A DNA stretch of 64,000 bases from Candidatus Uhrbacteria bacterium (GTDB lineage Bacteria > Patescibacteriota > Patescibacteriia > UBA9934). Made by a program: the position numbers and the translations under genes. The notes beneath the pieces were generated by a model. That model worked only from the letters and a program-made list of their open reading frames with translations, had not been told where the DNA came from and made no database searches. Location of the stretch: positions 705-64,704 of the forward strand of contig CALRHE010000002.1 of NCBI GenBank assembly GCA_943359345.1, in the 5' to 3' direction. Positions within the stretch are counted from its first letter, which is position 1, and every line of letters begins with the position of its first letter. Below, piece after piece: positions 6,482-39,018 of the stretch.

Positions 6482-6557
6482 GCCGATGTAGCTCAGTTGG
6501 TAGAGCAACGGTTTTGTAAACCGTAGGTCGTCGGTTCAAGCCCGACCATCGGCTCCA
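6482..6557 (+). tRNA. tRNA-Thr (anticodon TGT)
   Basis: GCCGATG acceptor pairs with CATCGGC; anticodon stem-loop ACGGT-TTTGTAA-ACCGT; T-arm GGTTCAAGCCC; encoded CCA. Confidence 0.85.
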
Positions 6558-6727
6558 CAAAAAGCCCAATATCCCTTGCGTTGTTGGATTAATTCCGGTA
6601 TTATTCGGCCCGCAACGCACCGTAGGCTAGTGGCCCGAACGTAGTGAGGGCCAAAGCGAGCGGCGGATAGACGAGACGAGGGCGACCACAGGGAGTCCGA
6701 ATGAGAGTCTATCTGGCAAGTAAGCGT

Positions 6728-6813
6728 GGGTCGATACCGAAGCGGTCAAACGGGGCAGACTGTAAATCTGCTGGCGCAAGCCTACGAAGGTTCGAACCCT
6801 TCTCGACCCACCA
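6728..6813 (+). tRNA. tRNA-Tyr (anticodon GTA), long variable arm
   Basis: GGGTCGA/TCGACCC acceptor; D-arm CCG-AAGCGGTCAAA-CGG; anticodon arm GCAGACTGTAAATCTGC as in E. coli tyrT; T-arm GAAGGTTCGAACCCTTC; CCA encoded. Confidence 0.85.
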
Positions 6814-6967
6814 TGTAGAAAACCCATATAACATCATAACTCCCCAGGTTCATTTAAATCATTCAGCTCCTAGAAGCGAACGAGTAAGGCCGCGGCGTAG
6901 GTAAATCCTACGGTAAGGCCGACGGAGTAAGCGACAACGGAGATGAATGATTTAAATGAACCGATTC

Positions 6968-7043
6968 GCCGCAGTAGCTCAGTTGGTAGAGCGCATCCAT
7001 GGTAAGGATGAGGTCATCGGTTCAAACCCGATCTGTGGCTCCA
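6968..7043 (+). tRNA. tRNA-Thr (anticodon GGT)
   Basis: GCCGCAG/CTGTGGC acceptor with one G-U pair; anticodon arm CATCC-ATGGTAA-GGATG; T-arm GGTTCAAACCC; CCA encoded. Confidence 0.85.
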
Positions 7044-29920: not shown

Positions 29921-30772
29921 CTAGACAGGTTCAATATACATAATACGCTTCGGACCGTTGGTTGGATCCTCATTAATCCAATCACCCATAGCCTCCATGA
30001 TCACGTCGATGTCATAAATATAATTCTGGCCAAGTCTGGTGCCGGGATCGTTGGTGATAAAGGTCGTCTCGGTATAACCACGAATGACTAGCATATGGTA
30101 GAGCGGCCCCTCACCAGTGAAGTTGGGGTTGCCAAGCTCGCGACCAGCGGCTGGAACAATAACTGGCTTGCCAGCTGCGATCAGAGCCTTAATGTCGTCG
30201 CTGGTGGGGTTGTCGATAATGATCGCCTTGGTGCCTGAATCTTTAAGTAAAAACTCTTGAGCTTGAGCTAGGCTGATACTCGGACCCATACCCAAACTTT
30301 CTTCCGCCTGCACCATGCGTATGAGTTCCGGATCTGCCACAACAGGATCAAGTTCACCAACCGCAGCTCCAGCATAATATTCAAGCACCATGTAAAAGGC
30401 CGCTTCCTCACAAGCATCATTATGCAGCTCATCCCAATTACGGTACGGGGCCTGAGATGTAAACGGTACAGCTAAGTTAAACTCAAGCGGCGGCAGTGCT
30501 GGCACTGGCTCAGTTTTTGGCTCAAGCTCTGTATCGAGTTCCATCACTAAGTCCGGCTCCGGAGCAGGTACAGGTGCTGGCTGTGTTTCAGACGTTGGCT
30601 TGGTGACTTCGACATAAGTCACCGCCGGGATGTCAGAGCTAGGCGTCGGCTGAACTCGCAACGCTTCGATAATCTTTAAACTAAAGGCGACTATTAGAAC
30701 GACTAAAATCAAGAAGGCATACCAGGGGTTAAATTTTTTTTCCTGTCGGCGGCGGCGCGGAAAAGCCATCAT
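29921..30772 (-). CDS. membrane-anchored peptidase C39-like (PF13529-like) domain protein
   Basis: N-terminal TM helix, Pro-rich linker, then ...VPFTSQAPYRNWDELHNDACEEAAFYMVLEYY... Cys-containing C39_2-like motif. Confidence 0.5.
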   Translation of the reverse strand: MMAFPRRRRQEKKFNPWYAFLILVVLIVAFSLKIIEALRVQPTPSSDIPAVTYVEVTKPTSETQPAPVPAPEPDLVMELDTELEPKTEPVPALPPLEFNLAVPFTSQAPYRNWDELHNDACEEAAFYMVLEYYAGAAVGELDPVVADPELIRMVQAEESLGMGPSISLAQAQEFLLKDSGTKAIIIDNPTSDDIKALIAAGKPVIVPAAGRELGNPNFTGEGPLYHMLVIRGYTETTFITNDPGTRLGQNYIYDIDVIMEAMGDWINEDPTNGPKRIMYIEPV

Positions 30773-32157
30773 AATGGTTGGGATAAACTCCAGTTGCGCA
30801 GCGCCCAGGTAGCCCGAACGTCGTCCTCATTGTAATCGATCACGTCTTGCAGTGATTGCTGATTCCCGCTTTTTAACCAGTCTTCAAACCAGAGAACCGA
30901 ATTCAAGCCCGAAGCGTCATCGTGCCGCCAGCGAAAACCAATGTACTGAGCAATATCTTTAAGAGAATAAAATGACAACGGAAAAACTACAGCTTCCCGT
31001 AAGCGCACCAGAATATCGATAGACTGTTCTTCGAGCATTAACAAGACCTCGCGATCAGTCCCATACTTTTCTCCCAAGCTCCGAAAAATATCTTGTTCAG
31101 ACCAACCATAATGATAAATCGGCGTGCCGATGTAACCACGTACAAACTTGATAAATTGCTCCCAAGCTTGCTGCTCGTGTTCAGGGTCCTTGGCTAAAAA
31201 GGCATGATATTTTTCGTCTTTGCCATTAACCTCAAGTACGCCAAACAAGTAGTGAGCGTCGCGCAACGGATCACTTTCAACATCAACAATCAGAGCGGTG
31301 TCGCCAGCGGGGAGATCAACTGGCCGCAAAATAAAGTGTCGCTTTTCGGCCAAAGCTCGAGCCTGCAGGTGAAGAAACTCCAAGCGATCGCGAGCTACAC
31401 CCGTAACCTTGCTCGCTACTAGATCAGGGTGAACAGCGGCAAGCTCAGTCACAGTAGTGAAGCCAGCTGAGTTAAATTCCTTCACCTCGCTCCGCCAAAT
31501 TCGGTTTAAACGTGACAGATCATCACAGATCACAGCCTGTTTTTTACACTCGTGAAACCAAGGTGATTGTTTACAGTCAGAGGTGAGGAAATGCGGCTCA
31601 GCATCACCGTCCAAAATACGCTCAATCGAATCAAGCGTAAGATGATATCGGGTAGCCGTTTCCGACAATAAATAACTTTCTATTTCGCCATTCGGACGCA
31701 TGACGTAACCCTGGATCGGCTTATTGCCCTGGATCAACCCCAAAATCTCGGCATAAAAACAGCCCTGTACCCTGTACTCATCCTTCAAATGCCTGGAGCG
31801 CTTAATGTCGCAAGCGATGTAATAATAATTTCCAAAACTCGACTTACCTTCGACCCTCTCTAGAATATCTGGTCTGGCTACAAACCGATCATGAATCAGC
31901 ACGCCACGATATATGCTCTGAGCCCCCTTTTTCATCTCTTCAAGCGTGTGAACAACAGCTTCATCCATGTCTTCGGCCACAATCTCAACCACCTTCCGGT
32001 TGGCCAGCAATTTGCGTTCAACTTCAGGCAAGAGTCCATCCTCTTGCAAACGCCGACGCAAAGCATCCTCAAGATGCCCGGCCTTGGCATCATGTGCCAC
32101 CCAAGACGGACACTTTAAATATTGATAAAAAGTATGTTCGTAAATGCGCGGGCGCAT
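30769..32157 (-). CDS. RecB-family nuclease, TM0106-like (PD-(D/E)xK N-domain plus RNase H-like C-domain)
   Basis: ...YYIACDIKRS... (DxK); C-terminal ...ALIVDVESDP...YHYGWSEQDIF... RNase H-like exonuclease signature; 4-bp overlap with the downstream C39-like gene. Confidence 0.5.
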   Translation of the reverse strand: MRPRIYEHTFYQYLKCPSWVAHDAKAGHLEDALRRRLQEDGLLPEVERKLLANRKVVEIVAEDMDEAVVHTLEEMKKGAQSIYRGVLIHDRFVARPDILERVEGKSSFGNYYYIACDIKRSRHLKDEYRVQGCFYAEILGLIQGNKPIQGYVMRPNGEIESYLLSETATRYHLTLDSIERILDGDAEPHFLTSDCKQSPWFHECKKQAVICDDLSRLNRIWRSEVKEFNSAGFTTVTELAAVHPDLVASKVTGVARDRLEFLHLQARALAEKRHFILRPVDLPAGDTALIVDVESDPLRDAHYLFGVLEVNGKDEKYHAFLAKDPEHEQQAWEQFIKFVRGYIGTPIYHYGWSEQDIFRSLGEKYGTDREVLLMLEEQSIDILVRLREAVVFPLSFYSLKDIAQYIGFRWRHDDASGLNSVLWFEDWLKSGNQQSLQDVIDYNEDDVRATWALRNWSLSQPL

Positions 32158-32189: not shown

Positions 32190-33200
32190 CTAAAGCTTTC
32201 TCACGATCCCCTGGTTGGCATCGACTTCTACCATATCGCCGTCCTTGAAGACTTTGCTAGCGATCTTGGTGCCAATGATACACGGCTTCCCAAGTTCACG
32301 AGCAACAATTGCGGCATGGCAGGTGATGCCACCCTCATCTGTAACAAAGGCTACGGCCTTTTTCATGGCGGGCAAGAAGTCAGGAGTAGTCATCGGCGAA
32401 ACAATGACGTCACCTACCTCTACCTGAGCAACTTGATCTTTCTTTCTTACAATCTTGACCCGTCCTCGGGCAAGTCCCATTTGAGCTATCTGGCCCTTGA
32501 TCTCACGCCAACCTTCTTGCTCATTCGCGTGATCTTGCAAGACAATAACGGGACGCGTTTGGATGTATTCGTGCAATGAAATGAGGCCTAATGGCTGGCC
32601 ATCTACAAACAGAAATTTAGCGCACCGCTCCTCTAAAATTGCTGGGTCAAGCCCGGCTTCAAGATCAGCCATGGTGACATGTGAGATCAAATCAAGATGA
32701 TGTGGTAGCAAATTGCACAAAGATGCTTGGATATATTTTTCCGCATCCACAAAAAACTGATCTTCGCTCCTTATCTGCATACCTTCGTCACGAGCCGCCT
32801 GCAGAGATTCTTCGCAGGTAATGACGTAAAAAAGCGTGTGTAGATTAGCCAAGGCTTCGCGCATCTTCACGAGCGATGCCTTGAGTTCGCCTACAGCTTG
32901 CGAAGGCCGTGACCACATATCTTGCAGATCGCTCAACTGCTGACGATACGTGCTCGCCGTCTGACGGATGAGCTCAAGATTTTGCCCATAAGTTTGTCCG
33001 GCCTTGGCCACCATCCAATCTTGATAAGCGATGTTCATCCAGATGTCGATCAGTCCGTCAGCGGCGTCAATAAAAATTGCCGGGCGTGGAAAATCCAAAT
33101 CACCAAAACGTACCGGAAGATCGATCAAACTAGTTTGCATCCAAATTTCCTGCGTTAGCAGAGCTGATTCACGACTGTATTTTTTCTCAAAGACAATCAT
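32190..33200 (-). CDS. PEP-utilising enzyme, central plus C-terminal phosphohistidine (mobile) domain half
   Basis: C-terminal ...VTDEGGITCHAAIVARELGKPCIIGT... is the PEP-utilisers swivel domain (PF00391) with the catalytic His. Confidence 0.6.
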   Translation of the reverse strand: MIVFEKKYSRESALLTQEIWMQTSLIDLPVRFGDLDFPRPAIFIDAADGLIDIWMNIAYQDWMVAKAGQTYGQNLELIRQTASTYRQQLSDLQDMWSRPSQAVGELKASLVKMREALANLHTLFYVITCEESLQAARDEGMQIRSEDQFFVDAEKYIQASLCNLLPHHLDLISHVTMADLEAGLDPAILEERCAKFLFVDGQPLGLISLHEYIQTRPVIVLQDHANEQEGWREIKGQIAQMGLARGRVKIVRKKDQVAQVEVGDVIVSPMTTPDFLPAMKKAVAFVTDEGGITCHAAIVARELGKPCIIGTKIASKVFKDGDMVEVDANQGIVRKL

Positions 33201-33202
33201 AT

Positions 33203-33820
33203 TCAGATAACTTTCGCGGCTTCTTGCAGCGCCTCCTGGAAAAGATTTTGCAGTGTGTTCATACGCCCCTCATCAGCTCGCTGCAGAGCACTGACGTACT
33301 CTCGTCTACGCATTGGGGTTTCAACGTGCAACTCGACAGGTGGCAAATCAAGATTGAGCAAAATAATATTCGTCAGCAAGCGCCCGATTCGACCGTTGTA
33401 ATCTTGAAAAGGATGGATCCAAAGAAAGCTATGATGAGCCCAAGCCAATAGCTCAATCAGTTGTTCTAGAAACTTCGGATCCTGCACGGTTGGCAAATGG
33501 CGTATCCGTTCAGCGAGATCGGCACAATAGTCGGCCATGCGTTCTGGAACTTTTATAAATTTGGGAGGGTGATGTTTTGAAACCTGTACGTCAACTTTAC
33601 GAAATCGACCGCCAAGATCCGGAAAGATCCATTTGAAACCTATCTCGTGCAACTTCTTGAGGAGCTCGGGCGTGATCGCGATCTCCGTTGTTTGACTCAA
33701 CCGTAAAACAAAATCCCATGCCCGTTGGATTCCCTCGAGCTCGAGCGGGATCAACTGAGAACGTGGAATAATGCCAAAGGCCGTATCCTTGTAGCTTGTC
33801 TCACCTGCTCTACGAGCCAT
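33203..33820 (-). CDS. Fic/Doc-family protein (putative AMPylator/toxin)
   Basis: HPFQDYNGRIGR matches the Fic motif HPFx(D/E)GNGRxxR with Gly to Tyr at position 6; 2-bp gap to the downstream PEP-utilising half. Confidence 0.75.
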   Translation of the reverse strand: MARRAGETSYKDTAFGIIPRSQLIPLELEGIQRAWDFVLRLSQTTEIAITPELLKKLHEIGFKWIFPDLGGRFRKVDVQVSKHHPPKFIKVPERMADYCADLAERIRHLPTVQDPKFLEQLIELLAWAHHSFLWIHPFQDYNGRIGRLLTNIILLNLDLPPVELHVETPMRRREYVSALQRADEGRMNTLQNLFQEALQEAAKVI

Positions 33821-34044
33821 AAAGCCTATGTTCGCTTGCGCATCGACGCAGTTACCATTTGCCTGGTGGTTTCAGGGTTTTCGGTTTTAGTCGTACGATA
33901 AAGCATCTTAGGTAAAAACCTGCGAAGATAGTTCCTACGCACTGCGCTTCTTTTAGAAGAACGCTGATAGCGGAGCAGCGATAACAAAATTCCCTTATTC
34001 AACATATTAACTAAACGGTAGCATGCTTAAAAGATCCTCACAAC

Positions 34045-34998
34045 TCATAACGTCGTAATTGGCCGGCTTTGGAGAATATACGCTTTTCCATCCTCCATCG
34101 CCCATTCGATGTCGCAGGGGAAGCCATAGTGAGTTTCGATGTTCTTGAAAATTTGCACAAGGGCATGAAGCTTATCAGAAGCAATCTTCTGTCGAGCAAC
34201 TTTGTCAGTTGGAACACCGACGCGTTCATTGCTGTGCTGACCTCGAACCAACATGAAGTCTTGAGCAGCGATATTCACGTCGATGATCGAGTCGTCACGC
34301 TTGTCGACAATGTAAGCATCAGGCGTGACCATCCCACCGACGATGTATTCGCCTAGGCCCCAACAAGCTTCGATGATCATTTGGTTGACGTCACGTGTGA
34401 CGGGGTGGACGGTAAACGTGATGCCAGAGACCTCACTTTGAACCATCTGTTGAATGACAACCGCAACTGAAACATACGACTTGCGCATACCTTTTTCGTT
34501 GCGGTACACGATGGCTCGCGGAGTAAACAATGACGCCCAGCATTTCTTCACGTTGCCGAGCAAAACTTTTTCTGTGGTATTCAAATAACTCTCAAGTTCC
34601 CCCGCCCAACTAGCCGTAGACGAGTCTTCGGCTGTGGCTGACGAACGAACGGCGACGAACTCGGAGCCGAGTTTGTGAAACTCGCTCAAAATTTGTGTTT
34701 CGATGTCCGCCGGAAATCTCGCATCGTGTAAAAGATCGTGAAGAATGCGTGAAGCTCGCTCAACCGAAGCCACGTCATCGTAATTTACTTTATTAAGTTC
34801 GGCCTCAACTTCCGCTTTCAAATTCGTCTCGTCGAGAAACCTGTCAAAGGCACTAGCAAGAATCACAAACCCAGGCGGGACAGGAATCCCGGCCTGAGTC
34901 ATCTCTCCGAGCGACGCGCCTTTACCCCCGGCTTCGTGGACAGAATTTTTGCTTAGCTGCGTGAAGGGCTTTACGAACATATAAACGATGCCCTCCAA
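34045..34998 (-). CDS. PEP synthase/pyruvate phosphate dikinase N-terminal ATP-grasp domain protein (PPDK_N only)
   Basis: ...SKNSVHEAGGKGASLGEMTQAGIPVPPGFV... and ...YILQSRPIT at the C-terminus (PF01326); stops at the domain boundary. Confidence 0.7.
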   Translation of the reverse strand: MEGIVYMFVKPFTQLSKNSVHEAGGKGASLGEMTQAGIPVPPGFVILASAFDRFLDETNLKAEVEAELNKVNYDDVASVERASRILHDLLHDARFPADIETQILSEFHKLGSEFVAVRSSATAEDSSTASWAGELESYLNTTEKVLLGNVKKCWASLFTPRAIVYRNEKGMRKSYVSVAVVIQQMVQSEVSGITFTVHPVTRDVNQMIIEACWGLGEYIVGGMVTPDAYIVDKRDDSIIDVNIAAQDFMLVRGQHSNERVGVPTDKVARQKIASDKLHALVQIFKNIETHYGFPCDIEWAMEDGKAYILQSRPITTL

Positions 34999-35014: not shown

Positions 35015-35677
35015 TTAGTCCTGAGTTGATTTGTCCTCCACCACCACCTTAGTCATGACATCACCCACCTTGATTTTATCTACCACGTCCATGCCCTCGA
35101 GTACGCGGCCGAAAACCGTGTAATTATTATCCAAGAAATAAGCTGGGCCAAGCGTGATGTAGAACTGACTACCGGCGGAGTTGGGGTCCATGGAGCGGGC
35201 CATGGCTACAATCCCGCGGTCGTGCTTAACCGCATTGAATTCGGCAGGGATTGAATACCCTGGGCCACCAGTACCATTGCCAAGCGGGTCACCGCCCTGA
35301 ATGACAAACCCGTCTTCACGACGATGGAATTTCAAACCATCGTAATAACCACCTTGAGTCAGGTACACAAAATTAGACACGGTTACAGGCGCTACATCAG
35401 ACAACAGTTCAAACACAATGTCACCTTTGTCGGTAGTTATGCGAATGTGTTTGTTTTCAAGCTGGTCGGCAGGTAATTGACCTGGAAAAGTCCAGGTGGG
35501 GGTGTCAGCTGACATAGAGGTTTCCAATGAATCATCAAGGGTGTCTGACTCCGATTCTACACAACCCGCACCAAACGTCAAAAAGGCCAGTGCTAAAAAC
35601 ACGGATGGGGAAAGCTTTAACATAGACACAAAATTATTCAGTTTGAGCATGCGCAACCTGCGCTTCCAAGGCTTCAA
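35015..35677 (-). CDS. secreted cyclophilin-type peptidyl-prolyl cis-trans isomerase
   Basis: Signal peptide, then ...[24 protein letters not shown]...[14 protein letters not shown]... Confidence 0.8.
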
Positions 35678-35911
35678 CCTTGGCCCCCTGAACTTCTAGT
35701 GCGTAAATCGATGTAAACAAAACCGCTGTCAAAGAAAAGACTAACACTAACATAAGTGCCATCAATTCCATGCTGCCGGCTGGCAAAGCATGGCAACTAC
35801 GACACACATTCGGTACTGACTGGATGGGAGTTGCGGATAGGGCCGACTTTCGTGCCCGGGCCGAGCTAACTTTTTTCGCGCGTGATGATGTAGGCATACC
35901 TCCCGAGTAGG

Positions 35912-36685
35912 CTAAATTTGAATCTTATCAAGTATACCATATTCGCTCAGTGGTTGAAGTGGCTCAGCCTGAGCACAACCACCGTTGCTTGAGGTGAACC
36001 ATCGGGCCACAAACACAAACTTTAAACTTGTAGGGGCGTCACCGATGTCAACTATAGCCTGCCGTTCAAGACGTGAACTAGCCTCGCCGTCGCCTACCCT
36101 GACCACGCCATTACACCCGCCTTGTTCTCCAAGCTCCAGAATACGCACCAACTCTTGATCTGGCTGGCTGAAACCGACAGCGATTTCGTAACCGACAGCT
36201 TCGGACGGAGCTTCTGCCAGGAGTTCATCGTAGACGTTAGTAAACACTGGTGGGTTAAAATCCAATACGTTACCAAGCGCAAAGGTACCCAACCTAGCAG
36301 TTTCGATAGTAATCAATTCTGAGGTGTGAGCTACAACCGGCGTAACCGCTTCCCACATATCTAGACTCTCGTGAAAACGATACACACGATACCCGTCAAT
36401 CAAGGCTAGATCCGTCTCGAAAATTTTAAAACTCACTCTGACAGGCTCTTCTAGAACAACTCCATCAGGGGTAGTCAGGTACCCTGAACCGATCAACGGC
36501 GCCGCGAGTGCAGAGCCCATTGTCACAGTTAGCGGCTGCGTGTTTCTAACAAACCCGGTCACGGTGGCAATCCCGTCTAGGCTGCTCACACTCGAGTCTT
36601 CGGGATTTATAAACATCAAATATCCAGCCGTAATCAGCGCAACTGCCAAAATCGTCAAAGATGAAAGCCCACGTTCAGACAACAT
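35912..36685 (-). CDS. hypothetical membrane-anchored protein
   Basis: N-terminal TM helix; no recognisable domain. Confidence 0.45.
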   Translation of the reverse strand: MLSERGLSSLTILAVALITAGYLMFINPEDSSVSSLDGIATVTGFVRNTQPLTVTMGSALAAPLIGSGYLTTPDGVVLEEPVRVSFKIFETDLALIDGYRVYRFHESLDMWEAVTPVVAHTSELITIETARLGTFALGNVLDFNPPVFTNVYDELLAEAPSEAVGYEIAVGFSQPDQELVRILELGEQGGCNGVVRVGDGEASSRLERQAIVDIGDAPTSLKFVFVARWFTSSNGGCAQAEPLQPLSEYGILDKIQI

Positions 36686-36689
36686 GGGA

Positions 36690-37040
36690 CAAGTATAACA
36701 AACAGAAGACCCTCGTTAGCAATCTCCCAGCAGAGGCTGAGCGACTTAAAACGAGGGCCGAGACAAAACGGAGTGTAGAAAACAGATACGGATGTGGTCC
36801 GTGATACGTGCAGGCTTGCGGCGCAAACGTTTGGCGCCGCATCGGGGTTCCCCAACCCCTTACTCCTGCACGGAGAGTTTACCTGCGCCGCCCCCGACGC
36901 AGACTCTACACAGCTTACTAAGCGGCTTCTACTCAAGCTCGCGTCTCAGCTGCCATCACGGCCACGCTATCCGCATCTTGTTCATGTACGTAAACAGAGC
37001 TTACATGAATGTTACGCAAAAGTCAAATTCGAGACCCCAC
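36690..37040 (-). ncRNA. GC-rich structured non-coding region (candidate ncRNA or leader, class unknown)
   Basis: No credible ORF; the overlapping ORFs on both strands are typical of a GC-rich non-coding stretch. Three-way junction: CGTGCAGG...[GGGGTTggggAACCCC][GCGGCGCcaaacgtttgGCGCCGC]...CCTGCACG. Confidence 0.3.
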
Positions 37041-37041
37041 G

Positions 37042-38070
37042 TTACTCTTCCCAAGGCACGCCCTCACGGCCAAACATGCCGTAGTTAGCGCAAGCAGCGT
37101 AAAGCGGTCGGCGCAAATTAAACCGCTCCACAATGGCTTCGGGCCGGAAATCGAAACGCTCTTGCACGATCTTTGACAAATCGGTGCCATCGCCGCCTCG
37201 AGCGCATAGTGAAATCGGCTCTTCAAGGCCGACCGTGTAAACCACCGTAATGAGCAAATTAGCAGCTAGCCCATCTTTAACCAGCTCACGGGCAGCAAAA
37301 CGGGCCATGTAGGCCCCCGCGCGTGATGGTTTCAAGGGATCTTTGCCAACCATGGCCACCCCTCCGTGGGGCAATAAACCTCCGTAAGTATCTGATAAAA
37401 TTTTCCGGCCACTCACACCAGCATTCAAAGTAAAGCCGCCAGACGTGAACGGACCTACGGGATTAATAAAAACTTTCACACCTTCAAGATCGCCGAGTAC
37501 TGGCACAACTGCGTGCTCGAGTAATAAACTTTGAACCTGAGTAGTATCCATGTCTTCGGTGTGTGCGGCAATCACCGTGACCGAGACAACTTTGTCTCCC
37601 TGCATAGCCAGCTGTACCTTGCCATCTGGTCGTAACCATGAAAAACGAGTATCGGTATGACGAAGGTCGTCAATTCTGCGAGCCAAACTATTGGCATACA
37701 CCACCGAGCGCGGCATCAGCTCACGTGTCTCTCTGGTGGCGTAACCATAAATTATCGCCGTGCCCGAAGCACCCGTTACGCGCGGTGTGCGTAAACGCTC
37801 TTGGCTAGGCCGCTCTAAATTTACAAACAACTCAATCGGTTCAGTGTATCCCAAACCTGCGTAAGCTTGTTTGGCAATGTCGGAAACATCAAAATCCGCC
37901 CGAGAGTCGACTACCCCGCCCAACATGAGCATGCCGTTTGAACCAAGTGCCTGAATATCCATTTTGGACAGCAAGTCACGACGCAAATACTCATCAACCA
38001 CCGACTCCACCAATAAGTCGCAAACTTTATCCGGATGTCCAGCCAAAGGTGCTTCCACGGCTTTTAACAT
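37042..38070 (-). CDS. metK: S-adenosylmethionine synthetase (short/divergent form)
   Basis: N-terminal ...LAGHPDKVCDLLVESVVDEYL... GHPDK motif. Confidence 0.75.
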   Translation of the reverse strand: MLKAVEAPLAGHPDKVCDLLVESVVDEYLRRDLLSKMDIQALGSNGMLMLGGVVDSRADFDVSDIAKQAYAGLGYTEPIELFVNLERPSQERLRTPRVTGASGTAIIYGYATRETRELMPRSVVYANSLARRIDDLRHTDTRFSWLRPDGKVQLAMQGDKVVSVTVIAAHTEDMDTTQVQSLLLEHAVVPVLGDLEGVKVFINPVGPFTSGGFTLNAGVSGRKILSDTYGGLLPHGGVAMVGKDPLKPSRAGAYMARFAARELVKDGLAANLLITVVYTVGLEEPISLCARGGDGTDLSKIVQERFDFRPEAIVERFNLRRPLYAACANYGMFGREGVPWEE

Positions 38071-38133
38071 ATTGGCAGCAGTTTAAGGAGGAATCCCAAA
38101 AGAGTAAAGGAAATTTGACAAAATGGCCAAAAA

Positions 38134-39018
38134 ATGTTACTATTTTCGGTTCCGTGCCACCCCGCACTCCTGGAGGAACACATGCGTCAATCCCGTTGGC
38201 CGTGGCTGCACGGCGTTGTCATCCTGTTCATGTGCGCACTAATGGGCTGTGATCGGATTCAAGAACCTGATCGACAGACCAAGAATGTAGGCATGTCGGT
38301 GCCTGGTTGCGACTCTGACTGTCAGAACCGCATCCACCTCAGTCGGACCAAGGTCGCTCCGATCGAAGCCAACGAGGTCCGCTACGTCCTCAAGATCGTA
38401 CAGGACGAGTACTCTGCAAACCTCTGGCAAGCCCGTCTGAAGACGTGTCTTGACAAGTGGGAATACTTCGAACGTGCCCAGCGCGTCACCATGTACCCGG
38501 CCGGCCTCTTGGCTGGCAAGGCCTACGTGGAAGGCGCAGGTTGTCGCTTTCTCCGCTCCGGAGATGGTGGCTATGGCCCGATGCAGATCACATCGCCGAC
38601 AGCGCGTCACGTCAAAGACGTGGCCACCATGCTCGGCTTAAAGGCTAGCAACGTGAAGTGGAAAGAGGACTACTGGCACAATGTACTCCTCGGTGCTGTC
38701 ATGTTGTCGGACTTCGAAAATGAATTCGAATCAAGAGGTGTAGGTATCTTCGCCTACAATAGCGGACCAGGCGCGACACGCAAATACATGCGCAAAGCCA
38801 ACATCAAGGACTTCACTGGTCGGACCATCTCCGATTTCCGTGGAGCAATCCCGACTGGTTTCAGCGATGGCGCGCGACCTCGCATCTACCTGGACCGAGT
38901 CCTGGCGGGTGCTGTGCTCGTACAGCGAGCCAAGAACGGTCAGCCCACTACCGGCATCAAGCGCCTCGAACTTCACGACATTCCGGGTGCTGTGCCTGTT
39001 CAGGACAACGTCCAGTAG
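38134..39018 (+). CDS. lytic transglycosylase (SLT domain) lipoprotein
   Basis: ...GYGPMQITSPTA...NVLLGAVMLSDF...FAYNSGPGA... SLT family 1 motifs; probable lipobox LMGC after the Met at 38182; GC3-rich codon usage unlike its neighbours. Confidence 0.65.
   Translation: MLLFSVPCHPALLEEHMRQSRWPWLHGVVILFMCALMGCDRIQEPDRQTKNVGMSVPGCDSDCQNRIHLSRTKVAPIEANEVRYVLKIVQDEYSANLWQARLKTCLDKWEYFERAQRVTMYPAGLLAGKAYVEGAGCRFLRSGDGGYGPMQITSPTARHVKDVATMLGLKASNVKWKEDYWHNVLLGAVMLSDFENEFESRGVGIFAYNSGPGATRKYMRKANIKDFTGRTISDFRGAIPTGFSDGARPRIYLDRVLAGAVLVQRAKNGQPTTGIKRLELHDIPGAVPVQDNVQ

What the first reader, a model, noticed from the sequence alone, without database searches (positions are those of the whole stretch)
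36690..37040. A 350-nt GC-rich, highly structured non-coding region between metK and a hypothetical gene
No plausible ORF. The region is much more GC-rich than its surroundings. It contains a clear three-way junction. A long-range stem CGTGCAGG/CCTGCACG encloses two hairpins: GGGGTT-gggg-AACCCC, and GCGGCGC-caaacgtttg-GCGCCGC whose loop is itself palindromic. More paired segments lie on both sides. It is 3' of metK and 5' of the 35912..36685 gene on the minus strand. It could be an unclassified ncRNA, a large 5' leader/riboswitch-like element, or a decayed remnant of foreign DNA. The latter fits the compositionally foreign lytic transglycosylase on the other side of metK. Checks for tmRNA, RNase P RNA, SRP RNA, and TPP or cobalamin riboswitch signatures found no conserved cores.
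Basis: seen in the sequence. Interest (0 to 1): 0.55.

Follow-up and report, generated by a model that had tools for sequence, protein, structure and literature searches.

The report
New structured small RNA gene, Patescibacteria
The GC-rich spacer between metK and the next gene holds a roughly 290-base non-coding RNA gene on the minus strand, with its own promoter, a conserved four-helix junction and a terminator; eight related uncultured bacteria share it, it matches no catalogued RNA family, and its function is unknown.

Summary
Window 36686-37041 is non-coding and folds far better than shuffled sequence (z = -6.6 and -5.5). It is one arm (P4/P4a/P4b) of a larger fold.

On the minus strand the unit reads:
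- promoter TTGACT-N17-TAAGCT (37026-36998)
- long closing helix P1
- four-way junction P1/P2/P3/P4 (36965-36794)
- CU-rich linker
- intrinsic terminator (36757-36698)

The terminator abuts the extended -10 of a downstream gene that appears to be leaderless.

Eight related Patescibacteria loci, plus one cut by a contig end, carry the same unit upstream of the same gene. Three related lineages lack it; in one of them a diversity-generating retroelement fills the slot.

Covariation is strong. Twenty-five of 30 skeleton pairs show compensatory changes, 97.5% of cells are paired, and 0 of 500 shuffles reach this. G·U outnumbers A·C 17 to 2, which fixes the strand.

There is no Rfam, tmRNA, Pfam or protein-database match.

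Best reading: an independently transcribed, clade-specific structured RNA, probably protein-binding or regulatory. The mechanism is inferred, not shown.

Riboswitch, MITE, pseudogene and known housekeeping RNA readings are each disfavoured. Moderate interest: a new orphan RNA family with a narrow distribution.

The parts
37021..37026 (-). -35 hexamer TTGACT of the RNA's own promoter, 15 nt after the metK stop codon
   Evidence: TTGAC[ATG] followed by exactly 17 nt and a TAnnnT or AAnnnT hexamer occurs at the same place in 7 of 8 homologous loci. L172 has a 19-nt spacer to TATACT (18 nt to TTATAC). In L171 the promoter follows a Band_7 gene instead of metK. The tool's strict single-sequence scan did not call it in the window, so the evidence is comparative.
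36998..37003 (-). -10 hexamer TAAGCT (weak in the window; TAAGAT, TAGGAT, AATAAT, AATACT and TATAGT in relatives). The predicted transcription start is near 36991.
   Evidence: The start site is inferred from promoter geometry and has not been measured.
36969..36977 (-). P1 extension, 5' strand GAUGCGGAU, followed by the 5' bulge AGC (A-rich in most relatives)
   Evidence: It pairs with 36785-36793 in the minimum-free-energy fold. Equivalent helices with different sequences occur in L163 (AUGGGGG/CCCUCAU), L172 (GGAGGG/UCCUCC) and L173 (GGGUA/UACUC).
36954..36965 (-). P1 5' strand GUGGCCGUGAUG, the most sequence-conserved segment
   Evidence: All 12 pairs are paired in all 8 sequences, and 8 of 12 show compensatory change, mostly through L174. 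R1 cmsearch anchors on this segment.
36910..36953 (-). P2 arm (closing stem GCAGCU/AGCUGU with an inner hairpin)
   Evidence: All 6 closing pairs covary.
36874..36907 (-). P3 arm (AGAGU...ACUCU)
   Evidence: Three of 4 closing pairs covary.
36807..36872 (-).
   Evidence: (I2, I3). All 8 P4 closing pairs covary. The P4a/P4b tips are only about 55% identical to L162, while the rest of the core is over 90% identical.
36794..36806 (-). P1 3' strand UAUCACGG-A-CCAC, with a bulged A
36785..36793 (-). P1 extension, 3' strand AUCCGUAUC
36758..36784 (-). Predicted single-stranded CU-rich linker UGUUUUCUACACUCCGUUUUGUCUCGG, which contains CUCC
   Evidence: CU-rich linkers carrying a CUCC or CCUC motif occupy the same position in 7 of 9 homologues. 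The suggested role, as a seed or binding site, is inference.
36698..36757 (-). Intrinsic terminator: a 48-nt irregular hairpin CCCUCGUU...AACGAGGG (36710-36757) followed by the U-rich tract UCUUCUGUUUGU
   Evidence: (I1, arms 36710-36731 and 36736-36757). Every homologue has a GC-rich hairpin plus U-run here. The tool's simple terminator scan missed it because the loop exceeds 8 nt.
36683..36700 (-). Not part of the RNA: extended -10 TGTTATACT, 6 nt, then the ATG of the downstream 257-aa gene (an apparently leaderless mRNA)
   Evidence: TATA[CA]T followed by 6 nt and ATG is conserved in the window, L164, L166 and L169, whether or not the RNA is present.

Best explanation
The interval is a stand-alone gene for a structured non-coding RNA of about 294 nt. 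It is read on the minus strand, in the same direction as metK and the downstream gene.

Layout of the unit:
- Transcription starts at a sigma-70-type promoter placed just after the metK stop codon, with the start near 36991.
- The RNA folds into a long, bulged closing helix (P1 extension plus P1). The inner part of P1, GGCCGUGAY/RUCACGG, is nearly invariant in sequence.
- P1 closes an almost linker-free four-way junction with three arms, P2, P3 and P4.
- A CU-rich single-stranded stretch follows, then a long hairpin and U-tract that end transcription.
- That terminator also separates metK from the next gene, which has its own extended -10 promoter and appears to be translated as a leaderless mRNA.

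What is shown: homology, architecture, covariation, strand, absence from all catalogued families, and presence or absence as a whole module.

What is inferred: the promoter and terminator are used, and the RNA acts in trans.

My preferred mechanism (about 35-40% of the probability) is a stable protein-binding scaffold RNA in the manner of Y RNA, 6S or raiA-type RNAs. In this reading the sequence-invariant bulged stem is the protein site and the fast-evolving arm tips and CU-rich tail are effector surfaces. Next comes base-pairing regulation through the CUCC-containing linker against Shine-Dalgarno-like GGAG sites (about 20%).
For: 1. Fold. Folding is far better than shuffles in the window and in all 8 homologues (z = -4.0 to -6.4).

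2. Homologues. A homologous element sits upstream of the orthologous 257-aa gene in L162, L163, L168, L171, L172, L173 and L174. A partial copy sits at a contig end in L170 (alignments).

3. Architecture. Every homologue has the same P1 plus three-arm layout despite divergent sequence.

4. Covariation.
- On the hand-extracted skeleton, 97.5% of 236 cells are paired and 25 of 30 pairs have double changes. None of 500 shuffles reaches any of the five measures, and slid registers pair only 28-48%.
- On an Infernal-made alignment of 5 sequences, 98.7% of cells are paired and 11 of 31 pairs have double changes. None of 500 shuffles reaches four of the five measures.

5. Strand. There are 17 G·U cells against 2 A·C cells.

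6. Promoter. TTGAC[ATG]-N17-(T/A)AnnnT is conserved in 7 of 8 loci and moves with the RNA when another gene precedes it in L171.

7. Terminator. Every homologue has a GC-rich hairpin followed by a U-run.

8. Constraint. The RNA's 5' two-thirds is 90-93% identical to L162, while metK DNA is about 82% identical.

9. Not coding. There is no Pfam hit. The 98-aa ORF has no homologue in 5.8 billion proteins. Open frames are not conserved and indels are not multiples of three.

10. Not catalogued. There is no Rfam match at E <= 10 in the window or E <= 5 in relatives, and no tmRNA.
Against: - There is no transcript evidence of any kind. The start site, the 3' end and even expression are inferred.
- The window's own -10 (TAAGCT) is weak, and the tool's promoter scan found nothing.
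- Three related lineages do without the RNA at this locus, so it is dispensable, or it sits elsewhere in those genomes, which I could not check.
- Only 8 to 9 sequences from one narrow clade are available.
- The best covariation figures come from a hand-fitted skeleton with bulges removed, which leans towards the structure.
- Nothing identifies a partner protein or a target, so the trans-acting mechanism is a guess by analogy.
Confidence: 0.68

Rival explanations
1. A cis-acting module with no trans function. In this reading the structure is the 3' end of the metK transcript, acting as a stabilising 3' UTR plus terminator or insulator. It stops read-through into the promoter of the downstream leaderless gene.
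For: metK has no terminator of its own before the element, and the element ends in the only terminator between the two genes. The terminator's U-tract overlaps the next gene's extended -10. The element is dispensable in three lineages, where metK abuts the next gene with a 28-33 nt spacer.
Against: A terminator does not need a four-way junction of about 170 nt kept by compensatory changes. It also does not need a conserved promoter directly after the metK stop. In L171 the module follows a Band_7 gene rather than metK. The core is more conserved than metK DNA overall, whereas the terminator part is among the least conserved (55-60%).
Confidence: 0.12
2. A 5' leader, riboswitch or attenuator that controls the downstream 257-aa gene. 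A large aptamer would be followed by a terminator acting as the expression platform.
For: The element is always immediately upstream of, and on the same strand as, that gene, even when other genes are inserted upstream. The order is promoter, structured domain, terminator, ORF.
Against: The gene keeps its own TATA[CA]T -10 hexamer (preceded by TG in the window, L166 and L169) exactly 6 nt before its ATG in relatives with and without the element. There is no Shine-Dalgarno sequence, and only about 14 nt lie between the U-tract and the ATG. I found no conserved anti-terminator alternative. The one alternative hairpin, at 36788-36802, is not conserved. The gene product is a membrane-anchored double beta-sandwich protein (pLDDT 82; best PDB matches are ZU5 domains at E about 6e-3). 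It is neither a transporter nor a metabolic enzyme. No riboswitch family matches.
Confidence: 0.07
3. A DNA-level element: a miniature inverted-repeat transposable element or a remnant of integrated foreign DNA. The terminal inverted repeats would be GTGGCCGTGAY and RTCACGGNCCAC.
For: The arm sequences of P1 are far more conserved than the interior, as transposase-bound ends would be. Presence is patchy among relatives, and in L169 a retroelement occupies the same slot. A 22-nt direct repeat (77% identity) flanks the element at 36654-36675 and 37022-37043 (2 of 300 shuffles score as high).
Against: The window holds a single copy. The element is always at the same syntenic position in 8 genomes. 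It is absent from 100 more distant metK loci. The interior is three separate hairpin arms kept by compensatory change, not one long palindrome. The excess of G·U over A·C (17 to 2) points to selection on RNA, not DNA. The flanking repeat is significant only in the window, not in the other loci.
Confidence: 0.05
4. A highly diverged copy of a known housekeeping or accessory RNA (RNase P RNA, SRP RNA, 6S RNA, Y RNA, tmRNA) that Rfam models fail to recognise in this lineage.
For: Patescibacteria are poorly represented in Rfam seed alignments (my own knowledge). The size of 210-345 nt and the long closing helix formed by the 5' and 3' regions resemble RNase P, 6S and Y RNAs.
Against: No hit at E <= 10 on a 701-nt query with permissive filters, and none in five relatives. 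ARAGORN finds no tmRNA. I saw none of the RNase P conserved blocks (GGAAAGUCC, ACAGAA..GGCUUA), the SRP domain IV motif or a T-arm when reading the sequence (the motifs are from my own knowledge). The branched junction does not fit 6S. An essential RNA would not be missing from three syntenic lineages unless it had moved elsewhere, which I could not test.
Confidence: 0.05

Closest known systems
Orphan structured bacterial ncRNAs such as the raiA motif RNA (about 200 nt, multi-stem junctions; Rfam entry as I recall it, from my own knowledge)
   Same: An independently transcribed, mid-sized RNA with multi-helix junctions supported by covariation. It sits at a fixed position next to one particular gene without evidence that it regulates that gene. 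Its biochemical function is unknown.
   Different: No sequence or structure match: no Rfam family reaches E <= 10. The phylum differs and the distribution is much narrower, with one Patescibacteria clade and 8-9 sequences. The junction topology also differs.
Y RNAs, including bacterial YrlA (a Ro60-bound scaffold RNA; from my own knowledge)
   Same: A long stem formed by the 5' and 3' regions, carrying a sequence-conserved bulged helix. Beyond it lies a more variable structured module. A pyrimidine-rich single-stranded stretch is present.
   Different: The RNA is two to three times larger. There is no Rfam Y RNA or YrlA hit. No T-arm-like UUCGA loop was seen. No Ro60/TROVE gene is known nearby. 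The window's proteins were only sampled.
6S RNA (ssrS)
   Same: A small RNA with its own promoter and a long closing stem, and a plausible global protein-binding role.
   Different: 6S is a single irregular hairpin with a central bubble that mimics an open promoter. This RNA has a four-way junction with three arms. There is no RF00013 hit.
Riboswitch or T-box type 5' leaders
   Same: The order is promoter, large structured domain, intrinsic terminator, ORF, all on one strand.
   Different: The downstream gene has its own promoter and appears leaderless. There is no anti-terminator, no family match, and some orthologues lack the element entirely.

Membership tests
Any Rfam 15 family (4227 models, including RNase P, SRP, 6S, tmRNA, Y RNA, riboswitches, T-box, HEARO, raiA, ROOL, GOLLD, OLE) | Covariance-model score at or above the family's gathering threshold | tested here: not met
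   At gathering thresholds the whole window gives only 3 tRNAs. At E <= 10 the interval 36500-37200 gives only two noise hits, of 13.1 and 7.7 bits against thresholds of 70 and 90. Five homologous loci give nothing in the element at E <= 5.
tmRNA | tRNA-like acceptor and T-arm plus a tag-peptide reading frame | tested here: not met
   ARAGORN finds 3 tRNAs and no tmRNA in the window.
RNase P RNA (bacterial type A or B) | P4 pseudoknot formed by the conserved blocks GGAAAGUCC and ACAGAA..GGCUUA, plus the J11/12-J12/13 module | tested here: not met
   No RF00010 or RF00011 hit at E <= 10. I did not see the blocks on either strand when reading the sequence; the motifs themselves are from my own knowledge.
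6S RNA | A single long irregular hairpin with a large central bubble and no multi-way junction | tested here: not met
   All 8 homologues fold into P1 plus three arms, with covariation for each arm. There is no RF00013 hit.
Riboswitch or attenuator leader | It lies in the 5' UTR of the regulated gene, so the gene depends on the upstream promoter | tested here: not met
   The -10 hexamer TATA[CA]T (extended by TG in the window, L166 and L169) sits 6 nt before the ATG in loci with and without the element. This is inferred from sequence and has not been measured.
Riboswitch or attenuator leader | Mutually exclusive terminator and anti-terminator pairings conserved across homologues | tested here: inconclusive
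   Reading the folds showed none. The alternative hairpin at 36788-36802 is not conserved in L163. I ran no systematic search of alternative structures.
Riboswitch or attenuator leader | Ligand binding by the conserved core | not testable with these tools
   This needs in-line probing or another binding assay.
MITE or other small mobile DNA element | Multiple dispersed copies per genome | tested here: not met
   The 64-kb window holds a single copy by blastn and by covariance model. In all 8 relatives the element sits at one and the same syntenic site. Whole genomes were not available.
MITE or other small mobile DNA element | Terminal inverted repeats flanked by short target-site duplications | tested here: inconclusive
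   P1 could be read as 12-bp inverted repeats. A 22-nt imperfect direct repeat flanks the whole unit in the window only. G·U exceeds A·C by 17 to 2, which argues for RNA-level pairing.
Diversity-generating retroelement (template RNA) | A TR/VR repeat pair with adenine-specific differences and a nearby reverse transcriptase | tested here: not met
   The window has no second copy of any part of the element. tblastn with the L169 reverse transcriptase finds nothing significant in the window (best E = 0.43). L169 itself does meet the definition: 22 TR/VR mismatches, 20 of them at TR adenines.
Protein-coding gene or pseudogene | A conserved reading frame or a detectable protein homologue | tested here: not met
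   The two longest ORFs have no Pfam hit. The 98-aa ORF has no homologue in 5.8 billion proteins. Frames are not conserved, and indels are 1, 2 or 5 nt.

The most novel reading that the evidence does not exclude
This is the RNA subunit of a ribonucleoprotein specific to Patescibacteria and not yet described. A dedicated protein would bind the invariant bulged stem (GGCCGUGAY/RUCACGG). The arm tips (P4a/P4b, about 55% identical between strains whose remaining core is over 90% identical) and the CU-rich tail would be rapidly evolving specificity surfaces. The RNA shares a genomic hot spot with a diversity-generating retroelement, so it could serve host-interaction or defence functions in these episymbiotic bacteria.
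Probability: 0.15. Interest if true: 0.7.

Novelty: new member of a known kind. Interest (0 to 1): 0.45.

Why it matters
To my knowledge, Patescibacteria (the CPR) have tiny genomes and almost no described lineage-specific non-coding RNAs. Here a roughly 290-nt RNA has a covariation-supported four-way junction, its own promoter and a core more conserved than the neighbouring housekeeping gene's DNA. That is a concrete, testable candidate for such an RNA.

It would add a family to the short list of mid-sized orphan structured bacterial RNAs. It also gives a defined target for metatranscriptome mapping and pull-downs in groundwater communities.

Its narrow distribution and dispensability limit its general importance unless a partner or a function is found.

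Tried and rejected
- **Rfam and ARAGORN.** Rfam at gathering and at permissive thresholds, on the window and on five relatives, gave nothing. So did ARAGORN.

- **Coding or pseudogene.** Pfam on both overlapping ORFs and a 5.8-billion-protein search gave nothing. Frames and indels are not consistent with coding.

- **Repeats.** The window holds no second copy.

- **Distant relatives through metK.** A search for metK relatives brought in 160 loci from genome and metagenome collections, with a best identity of only 48%. None of the 100 scanned with model R1 carries the element, and a P1-anchor regex over all loci then held gave only chance matches outside the known loci.

- **Covariance models.** Model R1 was built from the window plus L162.
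  - It recovers L163, L168 and L173 at E of 1e-5 to 1e-4.
  - It recovers L172 and L171 only weakly, even with filters off (E = 0.1 and 0.84), and misses L174.

- **Viral collection.** Two pattern scans returned at least 120 matches each.
  - Only two extend P1, and they score at noise level with R1, so I treat them as chance.
  - This was a weak test.

- **Downstream protein.** A structure prediction and PDB fold search gave a membrane-anchored double beta-sandwich with weak ZU5-like matches. This is uninformative for the RNA.

- **Literature.** Three full-text searches for structured RNAs in CPR or Parcubacteria found nothing relevant.

- **Loop motifs.**
  - An apical-loop motif YUUGGR(A) recurs on the P4 arm, and GGUUGGG recurs on P2 and P3. 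The overall count of [UC]UGG sites is about what composition predicts, by a mental estimate that I did not compute.
  - A P4a-P4b loop-loop kiss (UUGG with CCAA) fits the window and L168 but not L162 or L163.
  - I do not rely on either observation.
Full report
**1. The observation**

The interval lies between metK and a 257-aa gene with no Pfam hit. metK is at 37042-38070 on the minus strand and has all three S-AdoMet synthetase domains. The 257-aa gene is at 35912-36685, also on the minus strand.

CGTGCAGG at 36807-36814 pairs with CCTGCACG at 36865-36872. Between them lie GGGGTT/AACCCC and GCGGCGC/GCGCCGC (pairs I2 and I3; folds).

The region folds far better than dinucleotide shuffles on both strands (z = -6.6 plus, -5.5 minus; 0 of 100 shuffles as good).

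The GC claim is only partly right. The interval as given is 53.6% GC against 49.6% for the window, which is the top 10% of windows. The core 36794-36965 is 62.2%, the top 2%.

Mechanical ORFs of 93-98 aa overlap the region, but nothing supports them as genes:
- They have no Pfam hit.
- The 98-aa ORF has no homologue among 5.8 billion proteins.
- Open frames differ between homologues, and indels against the closest relative are 1, 2 or 5 nt.

**2. Known families**

Rfam 15 finds only three tRNAs in the whole window at gathering thresholds. In 36500-37200 at E <= 10 it finds only two noise hits. It finds nothing in the equivalent regions of five relatives at E <= 5. ARAGORN finds no tmRNA.

**3. 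The organism**

The window has ordinary bacterial genes (gyrB, a class II aminoacyl-tRNA synthetase, xseA, dinB).

metK is at most 48% identical to anything in the species-representative genome set, and its best matches there are Patescibacteria. In the large protein collection the closest named relatives are Candidatus Uhrbacteria, at 57-68% identity. Unnamed 'Patescibacteria group' proteins reach 91%.

**4. Relatives**

The downstream 257-aa protein has 21 homologues, all unnamed or Patescibacteria. I fetched the contigs that encode eleven of them. Gene order is conserved: DEAD-box helicase, metK, the 257-aa gene, a gene of about 85 aa, cyclophilin, and an RNase_H_2-domain gene.

The spacer upstream of the 257-aa gene varies as follows:

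| Locus | Spacer |
|---|---|
| Window | 356 nt |
| L162 | 366 nt |
| L163 | 343 nt |
| L168 | 408 nt |
| L171 | 392 nt (here after an inserted Band_7 gene) |
| L172 | 300 nt |
| L173 | 265 nt |
| L174 | about 310 nt |
| L164/L165 | 28 nt |
| L166/L167 | 33 nt |

In L169 the slot holds a complete diversity-generating retroelement. L170 carries a partial copy cut by the contig end.

The long spacers are homologous to one another.

**5. Anatomy**

All features read on the window's minus strand, which is the gene strand.

- **Promoter.** Directly after the stop codon of the upstream gene, 7 of 8 loci have TTGAC[ATG], exactly 17 nt, then a TAnnnT or AAnnnT hexamer. In the window this is TTGACT at 37026-37021 and TAAGCT at 37003-36998. 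The tool's strict single-sequence scan does not call the window's copy because its -10 is weak, so this evidence is comparative.
- **P0.** Most relatives start with a small 5' hairpin: GCCAC/GUGGC in L168 and L173, GCUAC/GUGGC in L171, UUCAC/GUGAA in L163. In the window it is marginal.
- **P1 extension.** This helix has a 3-7 nt 5' bulge, A-rich in most sequences (window 36977-36969 with 36793-36785).
- **P1.** GUGGCCGUGAYG pairs with YRUCACGG(N)CCAC (36965-36954 with 36806-36794).
- **Junction.** P1 closes a four-way junction with almost no unpaired bases. Its arms are P2 (36953-36910), P3 (36907-36874) and P4 (36872-36807). Independent minimum-free-energy folds of the inner region give the same three arms in seven of the eight homologues; for L171 the fold of the P1-closed core gives them.
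- **Linker.** A CU-rich stretch follows (36784-36758). A CUCC or CCUC motif occurs in 7 of 9 sequences.
- **Terminator.** A long GC-rich hairpin (36757-36710) and a U-rich tract end the unit.
- **Next gene.** That tract runs into TGTTATACT (36700-36692), an extended -10 that lies 6 nt before the ATG of the 257-aa gene. The TATA[CA]T hexamer six bases before the ATG is also present in L164, L166 and L169, which lack the RNA (TGTTATA[CA]T in L166 and L169; L164 has no TG). I infer that the gene has its own promoter and a leaderless mRNA.

**6. Covariation and strand**

*Infernal alignment.* An Infernal model built from the window and L162 (R1) aligns L163, L168 and L173 at E of 1e-5 to 1e-4. On that alignment, scored against the skeleton structure:
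- 98.7% of cells pair.
- 11 of 31 pairs have changes on both sides.
- 0 of 500 shuffles reach the observed value for four of the five measures.
- Slid registers pair only 27-55%.

*Hand-extracted skeleton.* I extracted the closing stems of P1-P4 by hand from all eight sequences, anchored at the junction and with bulges removed:
- 97.5% of 236 cells pair.
- 25 of 30 pairs have compensatory changes.
- 0 of 500 shuffles reach any of the five measures.
- Slid registers pair 28-48%.

The second set is fitted to the structure by construction, so it is an upper bound.

*Strand.* G·U cells outnumber A·C cells 17 to 2, so the paired strand is the minus strand.

*All homologues fold well.* On this strand all eight fold 4.0 to 6.4 standard deviations below their shuffles.

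**7. Constraint**

Against the closest relative (L162), identity varies along the locus:
- metK DNA is about 82% identical.
- The RNA's promoter, P1, P2 and P3 are 90-93% identical.
- The P4a/P4b tips are 55% identical.
- The linker and terminator are 55-60% identical.

The core is therefore under purifying selection. The tips change fast while still forming hairpins.

**8. What it is**

The module of promoter, RNA and terminator is gained or lost as a whole. In L171 it stays next to the 257-aa gene rather than metK. It is single-copy in the window. It is absent from 100 more distant metK loci.

The simplest reading is a clade-specific, independently transcribed structured RNA of about 294 nt in the window and 210-345 nt in relatives.

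**9. How it might work**

All of this section is inference. An invariant bulged helix next to variable arms is what protein-bound scaffold RNAs look like; Y RNA with Ro60 is the example I know. I rate that reading highest.

The unpaired CU-rich tract with CUCC could instead pair with GGAG-type ribosome-binding sites. Such a site is present, for example, before the likely true start of the SLT gene at 38183.

No partner or target can be named from these data.

**10. Rivals**

- **metK 3' UTR or insulator with no trans role (0.12).** It explains the terminator but not the conserved junction or the promoter.
- **Riboswitch or leader of the 257-aa gene (0.07).**
  - It is contradicted by that gene's own promoter and by orthologues that lack the element.
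  - No anti-terminator was found.
  - The protein is a membrane-anchored double beta-sandwich rather than a transporter or enzyme (pLDDT 82; weak ZU5-like fold matches).
- **MITE or foreign remnant (0.05).**
  - It fits the patchy presence and a 22-nt flanking direct repeat in the window.
  - It does not fit the single copy, the fixed synteny, the three-arm interior or the G·U excess.
- **Diverged housekeeping RNA (0.05).** It has no support from Rfam or from conserved blocks. I could not exclude it by finding the real housekeeping genes, because only fragments of the genomes were available.

**11. Limits**

- There are no expression data.
- There are 8 to 9 sequences from one clade.
- A broader covariance model could not be calibrated.
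- The viral-collection pattern scans were too loose to be informative.

**12. Verdict**

This is a real, new, well-supported structured RNA gene. It is not in Rfam 15, and three full-text searches found nothing like it. Its function is unknown, its distribution is narrow, and its interest is moderate.

Noticed in passing
L169:260-3000 (a relative; the slot equivalent to window 36686-37041): A complete diversity-generating retroelement sits between metK and the 257-aa gene in place of the RNA. It consists of a 227-aa target gene (425-1108) with a variable repeat at its 3' end, a template repeat at about 1445-1577, and a 325-aa RVT_1 reverse transcriptase (1981-2958). TR and VR align over 132 nt with 22 mismatches, 20 of them at TR adenines. 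The target gene is preceded by TTGACT-N17-TATAAT directly after the metK stop, the same promoter position as the RNA's.
   Followed up: partly
window 36683-36700 (minus); L164:2990-3009; L166:2985-3003; L169:2985-3003: The 257-aa gene appears to be leaderless. A -10 hexamer TATA[CA]T, preceded by TG in the window, L166 and L169, lies exactly 6 nt before its ATG in every locus examined, and there is no Shine-Dalgarno sequence.
   Followed up: partly
window 36654-36675 and 37022-37043: A 22-nt direct repeat (17 of 22 identical) brackets the whole RNA unit. One copy covers codons 4-11 of the 257-aa gene. The other spans the metK stop codon and the RNA promoter's -35. Only 2 of 300 shuffles score as high in the window, but the repeat is not significant in the other loci. 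It may be a trace of a duplication that created the slot or the promoter.
   Followed up: partly
window 35900-38080 compared with L162: Identity to the closest relative is mosaic. metK DNA is about 82% identical. The 257-aa gene is 97-100% identical, apart from a 57-70% patch at 36227-36306. The switch occurs at about 36706, at the 3' edge of the RNA unit, which suggests a recombination breakpoint there.
   Followed up: no
window 36816-36855 (P4a/P4b tips): The two apical hairpins of arm P4 are only about 55% identical to L162, while the rest of the RNA core is 90-93% identical. Both versions still form two hairpins. Either the segment was replaced or it is evolving fast. Unexplained.
   Followed up: partly
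window 38134-39018 (plus): The SLT-domain lytic transglycosylase gene (56.8% GC) is not part of the conserved gene order. Relatives have nothing there, or unrelated genes, between the DEAD-box helicase and metK. Its real start is probably the ATG at 38183, which has a GGAGG five bases upstream and encodes a lipoprotein-like signal (MRQSRWPWLHGVVILFMCALMGC).
   Followed up: no
window 32190-34998 (minus): Three genes lie between cyclophilin (35015-35677) and the RNase_H_2-domain gene (30769-32157), which are adjacent in all the relatives fetched. One of the three is a 317-aa protein carrying only the PPDK_N (ATP-grasp) domain of pyruvate phosphate dikinase. This is an insertion of roughly 2.8 kb specific to this genome.
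   Followed up: no
window 6482-7043 (plus): A cluster of three tRNA genes: Thr-TGT, Tyr-GTA and Thr-GGT.
   Followed up: no
window 36700-36991 (minus) and homologues: Hairpin loops repeatedly carry UUGG-type motifs. The P4 arm carries YUUGGR(A) in nearly all homologues, and P2 or P3 carries GGUUGGG in L163, L172, L173 and L174. In the window and L168 the P4a loop (UUGG) is complementary to the P4b loop (CCAA). This is not so in L162 or L163.
   Followed up: partly
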